From Escherichia coli (lineage in GTDB: Bacteria > Pseudomonadota > Gammaproteobacteria > Enterobacterales > Enterobacteriaceae), in the NCBI RefSeq assembly GCF_003334255.1, contig NZ_QOWU01000118.1: DNA of 3,612 nucleotides; one strand, given 5' to 3'. The translations under genes were made by a program, and so were the position numbers. The notes beneath the pieces were generated by a model that was not told where the DNA came from, ran no database searches, and was given only the letters and a program-made list of their open reading frames with translations. This document shows, one piece after another, positions 2,470 to 2,513 of the stretch (positions within the stretch are counted from its first letter, which is position 1; every line of letters begins with the position of its first letter).

Positions 2470-2513
2470 TCATTCAGAAATCAGTCAGGCCAACGCGGTG
2501 GCCTGATAACGTG

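What the first reader, a model, noticed from the sequence alone, without database searches (positions are those of the whole stretch)
2487..2504. Inverted repeat in the D-E intergenic spacer
The 57-nt spacer between the D stop (2514) and the E start (2456) contains AGGCCA-(6 nt)-TGGCCT, a 6-bp stem with a 6-nt loop. It is not followed by a U-tract, so it is unlikely to be a terminator. It could be an RNase-protective or processing hairpin, or a protein-binding site that tunes relative D and E expression. The spacer length is similar to what I recall for lambda D-E (about 55 nt).
Basis: seen in the sequence. Interest (0 to 1): 0.25.

Follow-up and report, generated by a model that had tools for sequence, protein, structure and literature searches.

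The report
Conserved RNA hairpin between capsid genes
The inverted repeat is a real, evolutionarily maintained RNA hairpin between the head-decoration gene and the major capsid gene of a phage-21-like prophage; it is the local version, with a degraded U-tract, of a terminator-like hairpin that lambda, N15, Gifsy-1 and most relatives carry at the same spot, so it is an ordinary member of a known but poorly understood class.

Summary
The repeat exists where stated but is larger than described. It has an 8-bp perfect stem (2485-2506, minus strand = mRNA sense) with a 6-nt loop, and extends to 2480-2510. Only 0.2% of shuffles of the spacer reach 8 bp.

The window is a phage-21-type lambdoid head module (C/Nu3, D/shp, E/gene 7, FI, FII).

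Nearly every relative has a GC-rich hairpin in the D-E spacer:
- Within 91 phage-21-type haplotypes the stem arms are 5-8x less diverse than third codon positions, while the loop is hypervariable.
- Across 30 distinct spacers 94% of stem cells pair, with compensatory changes (A-U / G·U / G-C).
- In lambda, N15 and phi80 the hairpin is followed by U7-8, a canonical intrinsic terminator, and N15's record annotates it as one.
- In the phage-21 lineage the tail is only CUGAUUUCUG and fails a terminator discriminant.

Every lineage also carries a second hairpin right after E.

Best reading: an intra-operon late-mRNA hairpin that acts mainly post-transcriptionally, as an exonuclease barrier or processing boundary for the abundant D and E messages, and is at most a weak terminator for polymerase not modified by Q. 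The mechanism is inferred, not shown.

It is a new member of a known kind. Interest is low.

The parts
2485..2506 (-). Core hairpin in the late mRNA: 8-bp perfect stem UCAGGCCA/UGGCCUGA with 6-nt loop CCGCGU (loop = 2493-2498)
   Evidence: -13.0 kcal/mol, z -4.2. It is the only perfect stem of at least 8 bp on this strand of the window. Stem arms have pi 0.016 and the loop 0.206 among 91 haplotypes.
2480..2510 (-). Extended hairpin: the core plus a 1-nt bulge (C2484) and four weak outer pairs (2 A-U, 2 G-U)
   Evidence: -14.0 kcal/mol, z -4.0
2473..2484 (-). 3' tail CUGAUUUCUGAA: only moderately U-rich, not a canonical terminator U-tract. It contains GAUUU, which fits the loose RNase E motif RNWUU; about 0.4 such matches are expected by chance in this stretch.
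   Evidence: Sequence. Terminator discriminant is -33 for the window and -21 for phage 21, against +18 to +34 for the lambda/N15 types. The tail is conserved in the 21 group, pi 0.031.
2465..2468 (-). Shine-Dalgarno AGGA of E, 8 nt before the ATG. It lies 16 nt downstream of the stem and is not sequestered by it.
   Evidence: RBS annotated at the equivalent place in the phage 21 records. The 16 nt before the ATG are almost invariant, pi 0.0014.
2514..2861 (-). Head decoration gene (lambda D / phage 21 shp homolog). Its stop codon UAA is at 2516-2514, 7 nt before the core stem.
1428..2456 (-). Major capsid protein gene (lambda E / phage 21 gene 7 homolog). Its ATG is at 2456-2454, 28 nt after the core stem.
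1390..1420 (-). Companion element: GC-rich hairpin (1400-1420) immediately after the E stop, followed by GUCUUUUUUC. This is a canonical terminator-like hairpin, so E is bracketed by hairpins.
   Evidence: -17.7 kcal/mol, z -4.0. A post-E hairpin is present in every lineage examined.

Best explanation
The element is the phage-21-lineage version of a hairpin that lambdoid phages with lambda-type head genes keep in the spacer between the decoration gene (D/shp) and the major capsid gene (E/7).

It is transcribed as part of the single Q-antiterminated late mRNA and folds into an 8-9-bp GC-rich stem-loop, 7 nt after the D stop and 28 nt before the E start.

In most relatives the hairpin is followed by a U-tract and is a bona fide intrinsic-terminator structure. 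In the phage-21 lineage the U-tract has decayed while the stem has stayed under purifying selection.

I therefore infer that its main job here does not depend on termination. I propose it acts as a structural barrier in the mRNA. After endonucleolytic cleavage in the AU-rich single-stranded tail, it would block 3'-to-5' exonucleases and so stabilise the upstream D-containing message. If cleavage falls upstream of it, it would instead cap the 5' end of the E message. With the second hairpin just after E, this would help the two most abundant virion proteins get more message than their neighbours. Termination of RNA polymerase that has not been modified by Q is probably weak at this copy.

Shown: the structure, its conservation, covariation, the homology of position, and the weak U-tract. 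Inferred: the stabiliser or processing function and the weak termination.
For: Identity of the locus:
- DNA is 97% identical to the phage 21 head operon, with shp and gene 7 flanking the spacer.

Structure:
-. Chance is 0.2% per spacer for 8 bp.

Conservation within the lineage (91 haplotypes of D to E):
- pi is 0.016 for each stem arm and 0.206 for the loop. Third codon positions give 0.082 (D) and 0.132 (E).
- Two of the four variable stem sites change to wobble pairs (C13->U, A15->G). The other two break a pair in 5 haplotypes and 1 haplotype.

Conservation across lineages:
- 44 of 47 distinct D-E spacers, from phage 21, L110, Gifsy-1, L123, L027, lambda, N15, phi80 and about 20 enterobacterial prophages, hold a GC-rich hairpin.
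- Spacer MFE beats at least 96% of shuffles in 11 of 13 hairpin-bearing lineage representatives.
- On 30 distinct hairpins 94.4% of cells pair. There are 47 double-sided changes against 18.2 +/- 2.9 in shuffles (0/500). Slid registers pair at 52% or less.
- The pair second from the loop is G-C in 18, A-U in 9 and G·U in 2.

Terminator character of the relatives and its weakness here:
- The discriminant is +18 to +34 (lambda/N15 types), +7 (Gifsy-1), +14 (L123) and -21 to -33 (21 type).
- The N15 record annotates both the D-E and the post-E stem-loops as putative rho-independent terminators.
- L025 carries the 21-like stem AGGCCAC/GTGGCCT followed by T6.

Operon context:
- In phage 21's late operon only five intercistronic gaps are 36 nt or longer. 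Four of them (D-E, E-FI, I-J, J-stf) hold hairpins of -17 to -20 kcal/mol.
- A post-E hairpin is present in all lineages, including the two that lack the D-E one.
- The hairpin never overlaps the E ribosome-binding site. Stem-to-ATG distance is 16-20 nt in the lambda clade and 28-35 nt in the 21 clade.

Mechanistic precedent:
- Intercistronic stem-loops at the 3' ends of highly expressed cistrons set subunit stoichiometry by selective RNA processing and stabilisation (PMC4423207).
- Terminator hairpins raise upstream transcript abundance (PMC11696848).
- gpD and gpE, at about 400 copies each per virion, are the most abundant lambda structural proteins (established knowledge).
Against: - There are no transcript-end, half-life or termination data for this element or for its lambda counterpart. 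None was found in seven full-text searches.
- The U-tract is strictly conserved in about 20 lambda/N15-type spacers. This argues that in those lineages termination, or a U-rich translational enhancer, is itself selected. The ancestral and perhaps still relevant function may therefore be termination.
- Two lineages do without the hairpin: Providencia prophages with a 26-nt spacer, and Aeromonas phage PhAER-5 with overlapping genes. It is therefore dispensable.
- The whole 21-type spacer outside the loop is conserved, not just the stem. Part of the low diversity could reflect recent common descent or constraint on the E translation-initiation region.
- The covariation alignment was anchored by hand on the hairpin and the sequences are phylogenetically related. 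Both inflate the statistics (caveats stated).
- The terminator discriminant was recalled from memory (d'Aubenton-Carafa 1990) and used modern energy parameters.
Confidence: 0.5

Rival explanations
1. It is a weak but functional intrinsic terminator inside the late operon. It stops, or partly stops, RNA polymerase that has not been modified by the Q antiterminator. In the lysogen this keeps stray transcription from reaching the capsid gene. Q-modified polymerase reads through it during lytic growth.
For: - The positional homologs in lambda, N15, phi80, L123 and Gifsy-1 score as intrinsic terminators, and N15 annotates its copy as one.
- The U-tract is strictly kept in about 20 lambda/N15-type spacers.
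- A lenient scan lists the window's site as terminator-like.
- Three other hairpins in the phage 21 late operon are terminator-like, and two of them are annotated as terminators.
- The phage L genome paper states that intra-operon terminators in lambdoid late operons are common. It proposes partial termination, or blocking of non-antiterminated transcription, as their role (10.1101/2020.10.05.325894).
Against: - In this lineage the four nucleotides next to the stem are CUGA and the tail has 5 U in 10. The discriminant is -33 (window) to -21 (phage 21), well below all the relatives that pass.
- The curated phage 21 record annotates terminators at I-J and J-stf but not here.
- The stem starts only 7 nt after the D stop, so a terminating ribosome would cover its 5' arm. 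This last point is inference.
Confidence: 0.3
2. It serves translation of E. By locking the upstream RNA into a local hairpin, it keeps the E ribosome-binding region free of long-range pairing with D coding sequence, or it separates D termination from E initiation. This would support very high E translation.
For: - Within each clade the hairpin sits at a fixed distance from the E start (16-20 or 28-35 nt), whereas its distance from the D stop varies from 3 to 40 nt.
- The SD-ATG segment is nearly invariant.
- The predicted fold leaves the SD essentially unpaired.
Against: - The constant distance can equally be explained by co-inheritance with E, and by constraint on the U-rich tail and the SD themselves.
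- The analogous hairpin after E is followed by FI, a low-abundance protein.
- Lineages without the hairpin still express E.
Confidence: 0.08
3. It is a DNA palindrome recognised by a dimeric DNA-binding protein.
For: It is a perfect 8+8 palindrome with a 6-bp spacer.
Against: - The motif occurs once in the 42.9-kb phage 21 genome. The 2-mismatch hits are at chance level, 3 found against 1.65 expected.
- Relatives replace the sequence while keeping the pairing, including double-sided changes. That is the signature of a folded single strand, not of a base-specific DNA site.
- The loop, which would be the centre of such a site, is hypervariable and changes length from 3 to 6 nt.
Confidence: 0.03
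4. It is a chance inverted repeat, or a decaying remnant with no present function.
For: - A 6-bp stem arises in 4% of shuffles.
- The U-tract has decayed.
- A few haplotypes carry a mismatch or a 1-nt deletion in the stem: L070, L219, L137.
- The window's own allele (U instead of G at loop position 6) loses one pair and about 3.8 kcal/mol relative to phage 21.
Against: - An 8-bp stem arises in 0.2% of shuffles.
- Stem diversity is 5-8 times lower than at third codon positions, while the loop is more diverse than either.
- A hairpin is kept at this position in lineages whose E proteins are only about 60% identical, with compensatory changes.
Confidence: 0.05

Closest known systems
D-E intercistronic stem-loop of lambda, N15 and phi80 (N15 record NC_001901: stem_loop 5980-6004, 'putative rho-indep. 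transcription terminator')
   Same: - Same position, between the decoration gene and the major capsid gene of a homologous head module.
- Same kind of GC-rich stem built on a GGCC(R)C / G(Y)GGCC core.
- Pairs related by compensatory changes.
- Does not cover the E ribosome-binding site.
   Different: - The lambda/N15/phi80 copies are followed by U7-8 and pass a terminator discriminant. The window's copy has CUGAUUUCUG and fails it.
- The stem lies 28 nt rather than 18-20 nt from the ATG.
- The lambda reference records carry no annotation for the element.
Intra-operon terminators of lambdoid late operons (as discussed for P22-like phage L, 10.1101/2020.10.05.325894)
   Same: A hairpin inside a single-promoter, antiterminated late operon, next to the procapsid genes. 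The authors themselves call its role unknown.
   Different: A different head-gene family (P22-like), and those elements were picked by terminator prediction. This copy would probably not be picked.
Selective RNA processing and stabilisation by intercistronic stem-loops (e.g. the cip-cel operon, PMC4423207; the classical malE-malF REP and pap examples are from my own knowledge)
   Same: A stable stem-loop immediately 3' of a highly expressed cistron in a polycistronic mRNA, followed by single-stranded AU-rich RNA.
   Different: No processing sites or differential transcript abundance have been measured here. The hairpin is not a REP element: it is single-copy in the phage and its sequence is unrelated.
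Hairpin just after the major capsid gene E (window 1400-1420; N15 stem_loop 7053-7073)
   Same: Same operon, same type of GC-rich hairpin, and found in all lineages.
   Different: In the window it has a proper U6 tail and a positive terminator score of +5.9.

Membership tests
Intrinsic (Rho-independent) terminator | GC-rich stem of about 5-14 bp with a short loop, on the transcribed strand | tested here: met
   8 bp with 5 G-C pairs and a 6-nt loop, -13 kcal/mol on the minus (sense) strand
Intrinsic (Rho-independent) terminator | Run of U residues starting within 0-2 nt of the stem | tested here: not met
   The tail is CUGAUUUCUG. The recalled d'Aubenton-Carafa discriminant is -33 (window) and -21 (phage 21), against +18 to +34 for the lambda/N15-type homologs. 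Only a lenient scan accepts it.
Intrinsic (Rho-independent) terminator | Measured release of transcripts at the site | not testable with these tools
   Needs in vitro transcription or Term-seq
Lambdoid D-E intercistronic hairpin | Lies in the spacer between homologs of lambda D and lambda E | tested here: met
   D and E homologs identified by tblastn. The hairpin is in the 57-nt spacer.
Lambdoid D-E intercistronic hairpin | Pairing kept across lineages through compensatory change | tested here: met
   94.4% of cells paired, with 47 double-sided changes against 18 +/- 3 in shuffles. The alignment was hand-anchored, so it is biased towards the structure.
Lambdoid D-E intercistronic hairpin | Stem under stronger constraint than neutral sites, with a free loop | tested here: met
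   pi is 0.016 for the stem, 0.206 for the loop and 0.08-0.13 for third codon positions in 91 haplotypes
mRNA-stabilising / processing intercistronic stem-loop (SRPS type) | Stable stem-loop at the 3' end of a highly expressed cistron within an operon | tested here: met
   Position and stability. D and E abundance comes from established knowledge of lambda virions.
mRNA-stabilising / processing intercistronic stem-loop (SRPS type) | Processed transcript ends at the stem-loop, and unequal abundance or half-life of the flanking segments | not testable with these tools
   No transcript data are available. The literature searches found none.
RNase III processing site | About two helical turns (about 20 bp) of double-stranded RNA | tested here: not met
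   At most 12-13 pairs including a bulge and G-U pairs. The length requirement is from established knowledge.
Any curated RNA family (Rfam 15) | Match to a covariance model | tested here: not met
   No hit in or near 2457-2513, even at E <= 10
Operator-like DNA-binding palindrome | Sequence (not pairing) conserved, usually in more than one copy | tested here: not met
   Single copy in phage 21. The sequence is replaced while pairing is kept in relatives.

The most novel reading that the evidence does not exclude
In the phage-21 lineage an ancestral intra-operon terminator has lost its U-tract, yet its stem has remained under purifying selection. This would make it a natural separation-of-function allele. 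It would show that the conserved role of the D-E hairpin, and perhaps of the long-unexplained intra-operon 'terminators' of lambdoid late operons in general, is post-transcriptional (message stabilisation or processing that sets capsid-protein stoichiometry) rather than termination.
Probability: 0.3. Interest if true: 0.4.

Novelty: new member of a known kind. Interest (0 to 1): 0.2.

Why it matters
Terminator-like hairpins inside the single, antiterminated late operons of lambdoid phages have been noticed for decades, and their role is still described as unknown.

This case adds a small but clean comparative observation. The D-E hairpin is kept by compensatory evolution across head modules whose capsid proteins are only about 60% identical. 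One widespread lineage, present in about 28% of complete E. coli genomes at full length, keeps the stem while lacking the U-tract.

That makes phage 21 versus lambda a convenient pair for testing whether such elements work by termination or by RNA stabilisation. The element is also relevant to anyone engineering lambda D/E display or expression cassettes.

It does not change any current model.

Tried and rejected
- Rfam at E <= 10 gave nothing at the site.
- Plain MAFFT of the hairpin segments put the copies with 3-nt loops one column out of register. Adding L027 broke the alignment. I therefore padded loops with N to a fixed length and dropped L027. That alignment is fitted to the structure, and I say so.
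- Protein-binding palindrome: rejected. It is single-copy and pairing, not sequence, is conserved.
- RNase III site: rejected because the helix is too short.
- A translational repressor hairpin that masks the SD: rejected. The SD is 16 nt downstream and unpaired.
- Whole-spacer MFE z-scores are only modest (z -2 to -3.4, and not significant for L013 and L015). The local-hairpin and comparative tests are more informative.
- Seven literature searches and one failed fetch of the Casjens & Hendrix lambda review gave no experimental work on the D-E element.
- The lambda RIL-seq preprint reports late-operon sRNAs only near pR'.
- Tandem Repeats Finder did not detect the three scaffold-protein repeats at DNA level.

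Full report
**What the window is.** All long ORFs lie on the minus strand and form a lambda-type head module:
- a C/Nu3-like protease-scaffold gene (2898-3542);
- a D homolog (2514-2861);
- an E homolog (1428-2456);
- FI-like, FII-like and Z-like genes.

The D-E junction is 97% identical to the phage 21 head operon, where the two genes are called shp and 7. It is 99% identical to E. coli prophages. 3980 of 5426 complete E. coli genomes hold a match to the window, and 1543 of them hold it over at least 80% of its length. The mRNA sense is therefore the minus strand.

**The observation.**
The stem is an 8-bp perfect stem, UCAGGCCA / UGGCCUGA (2485-2506), with a 6-nt loop.
- Four weak outer pairs after a 1-nt bulge extend it to 2480-2510.
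- The core folds at -13.0 kcal/mol (z = -4.2). The spacer as a whole folds at -15.6 kcal/mol (z = -2.5).
- In 20,000 dinucleotide shuffles of the 57-nt spacer, a 6-bp stem appears in 4.1% and an 8-bp stem in 0.21%. No other perfect stem of at least 8 bp exists on this strand of the window.
- The spacer is 57 nt. Lambda's is 55 nt.

**Comparative evidence.** I collected 220 loci encoding E homologs. They came from annotated phages, from one genome per species, and from viral contigs. I extracted the stretch from the D stop to the E start in each.

- Of 47 distinct spacers, 44 hold a GC-rich hairpin. One exception is the Providencia prophages, which have a 26-nt spacer. The other two are loci with altered D reading frames.
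- Aeromonas phage PhAER-5 has overlapping genes and no spacer.
- The hairpin sequences differ between lineages:
  - phage 21 type: UCAGGCCAC-CGCG-GUGGCCUGA
  - L110: CAGGCCGC-CGUU-GUGGCCUG
  - Gifsy-1: GAAGGCCGC-GAA-GCGGCCUUU
  - L123: CAGGCCGC-ACA-GCGGCCUG
  - L027: AAUCGGGUC-GUUUCA-GACCUGAUU
  - lambda: AAAGGCCGC-CUGU-GCGGCUUUU
  - N15/phi80: AAAAGCCGC-CUGC-GCGGCUUUU
  - further variants.
- On a 30-sequence alignment anchored on the hairpin (loops padded with N):
  - 94.4% of stem cells form standard pairs, against 81.4 +/- 1.6% in shuffles;
  - 47 cells carry changes on both sides, against 18.2 +/- 2.9 (0 of 500 shuffles reach it);
  - registers slid by 1-3 columns pair at 52% or less;
  - the pair second from the loop is G-C in 18 sequences, A-U in 9 (the 21 type and L025) and G·U in 2.
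- The alignment was fitted to the structure and the sequences are related, so these numbers are generous. The direction of the result is nonetheless unambiguous.

**Constraint within the phage-21 lineage.** I compared 91 distinct haplotypes of a 1005-nt D-spacer-E segment.

| Partition | Nucleotide diversity (pi) |
|---|---|
| Third codon positions, D | 0.082 |
| Third codon positions, E | 0.132 |
| Stem, each arm | 0.016 |
| Loop | 0.206 |
| 12-nt tail | 0.031 |
| 16 nt before the ATG | 0.0014 |

- Of the four variable stem sites, two change to wobble pairs (C->U opposite G, and A->G opposite U).
- The other two break a pair, in five haplotypes and in one haplotype.
- The window's allele has U rather than G at the last loop position. 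This allele is found in 38 of the 91 haplotypes. It loses the ninth pair that phage 21 has and about 3.8 kcal/mol.

**Is it a terminator?**
- In lambda, N15, phi80 and about 20 enterobacterial prophages the hairpin is followed by U7-8. The N15 record annotates it, and a second stem-loop after the capsid gene, as putative rho-independent terminators.
- I applied a discriminant recalled from d'Aubenton-Carafa et al. 1990. It combines hairpin energy per nucleotide with a weighted T count and is recalled from memory, so treat it as heuristic.

| Lineage | Discriminant score |
|---|---|
| lambda/N15-type copies | +18 to +34 |
| L123 | +14 |
| Gifsy-1 | +7 |
| L110 | -14 |
| L027 | -11 |
| phage 21 types | -21 to -33 (window -33) |

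- The tail here is CUGAUUUCUG.
- L025 carries a 21-like stem (AGGCCAC/GUGGCCU) with a true U6 tail. L123 aligns with the 21 type through GGCCUG-UUCUGUUUUU. The 21-type tail therefore looks like a decayed U-tract. This is inference by parsimony, since the outgroups have U-tracts.
- The carefully curated phage 21 genome record marks terminators between I and J and after J. It marks none at D-E or after E.

**Operon context.**
- In phage 21's late operon most genes overlap or abut. Only five gaps are 36 nt or longer. Four of them (D-E, E-FI, I-J, J-stf) carry hairpins of -17 to -20 kcal/mol.
- Every lineage has a hairpin immediately after E, including those without a D-E hairpin. In the lambda group it often has a UUCG tetraloop.
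- In the window this companion is at 1400-1420 with a U6 tail.
- The D-E hairpin never overlaps the E ribosome-binding site. Its distance to the ATG is nearly fixed within clades (16-20 nt or 28-35 nt). Its distance from the D stop ranges from 3 to 40 nt.

**Mechanism.**

Shown:
- a stable hairpin in the sense strand;
- maintenance by selection on pairing;
- positional homology to terminator-type hairpins;
- a poor U-tract in this lineage.

Inferred:
- Because the stem is retained where the U-tract is not, the function common to all lineages is likely to reside in the hairpin itself.
- The best-precedented hairpin-only function at this kind of position is protection of the upstream message from 3' exonucleases after cleavage in the single-stranded AU-rich tail. 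If cleavage is upstream, the hairpin would instead protect the 5' end of the downstream message.
- This is selective processing and stabilisation, as shown for intercistronic stem-loops that set subunit stoichiometry (PMC4423207). It is consistent with terminator hairpins raising upstream transcript abundance (PMC11696848).
- D and E encode the two most abundant virion proteins (established knowledge), and E is bracketed by hairpins.

The main rival is a weak terminator or insulator against transcription that has not been modified by Q. That is one of the two roles suggested for intra-operon terminators in the phage L paper, which also states that their roles are not known. I rate the stabiliser reading at about 0.5 and the terminator reading at about 0.3. 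The two are not mutually exclusive.

I rejected a DNA-binding palindrome, an RNase III site, SD masking and chance, for the reasons listed under the rival explanations and under what I tried and rejected.

**Novelty.** This is a new member of a known kind. The element class is annotated in N15 and is discussed generically for lambdoid late operons. This lineage's copy is not annotated in the phage 21 records, and it is a variant without a proper U-tract. I found no experimental study of the D-E element in the held literature.

My recollection of older work is from memory and was not checked here. That work comprises the Sanger 1982 lambda sequence, Ray & Pearson 1974/75 on differential functional decay of late messages, Sampson et al. 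1988 on translational control of late genes, and Ravin et al. 2000 on N15.

Noticed in passing
window 1390-1420 (minus strand): A strong hairpin, GCGGGGGCG-AAA-UGCCCCCGU, lies immediately after the E stop and is followed by GUCUUUUUUC. It looks like a canonical intrinsic terminator inside the late operon, 20 nt before the FI-like start. A post-E hairpin exists in every lineage examined, often with a UUCG tetraloop in the lambda group.
   Followed up: partly
window 2898-3542 (minus strand): The scaffold (Nu3/gp6-like) reading frame contains three tandem protein repeats of about 37 aa (…EAKGREHLATMLAGQQGMSVEQARAIL… and two more copies). The old phage 21 record M81255 annotates the corresponding DNA as 'Tri box, function unknown'. 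Tandem Repeats Finder does not see the repeats at DNA level.
   Followed up: partly
L125 and L127 (D-E spacer, 93 nt): In two Gifsy-like viral contigs the D-E hairpin carries a 13-nt internal duplication or insertion (…CAGGCTACAGGCCGCACAGCGGCAGCGGCCTG…). This gives a longer compound hairpin of -23 kcal/mol with the U-rich tail kept.
   Followed up: no
L090, L178, L218 (D-E region): Three 21-type loci have an altered D reading frame. The apparent 'spacer' is 28, 17 or 127 nt because D ends late or early. These are probably decaying prophages or sequencing errors. In L218 the hairpin itself is intact.
   Followed up: no
L007 (Collinsella sp. MAG) and L025 (Chryseobacterium sp. isolate assembly): Enterobacterial lambdoid head genes sit on contigs assigned to a Gram-positive gut actinobacterium (E protein 98% identical to the window's) and to a Bacteroidota isolate. 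These are most likely binning or assembly contamination rather than true hosts.
   Followed up: no
Aeromonas phage AP1, MT713136.1 250152-250309 (hit H21): A 158-bp stretch that is 96.8% identical to the start of the E. coli-type capsid gene lies unannotated near the end of a 254-kb Aeromonas jumbo-phage record. This looks like a foreign fragment or an assembly artefact.
   Followed up: no
window 2862-2889 (minus strand): Sigma-70-like hexamers (CTGACC-16-TACAAT, 9 of 12) lie in the 36-nt gap just upstream of D. This was the only promoter-like hit in the window and is at chance level (1 found, 1.8 expected).
   Followed up: no
L222 (phage 21 genome) 15633-15692 and 19176-19233: The only other long intercistronic gaps of the phage 21 late operon (I-J and J-stf) also hold strong hairpins with U-tracts, and both are annotated as terminators. 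Essentially all non-coding space in the operon is hairpin plus ribosome-binding site.
   Followed up: partly
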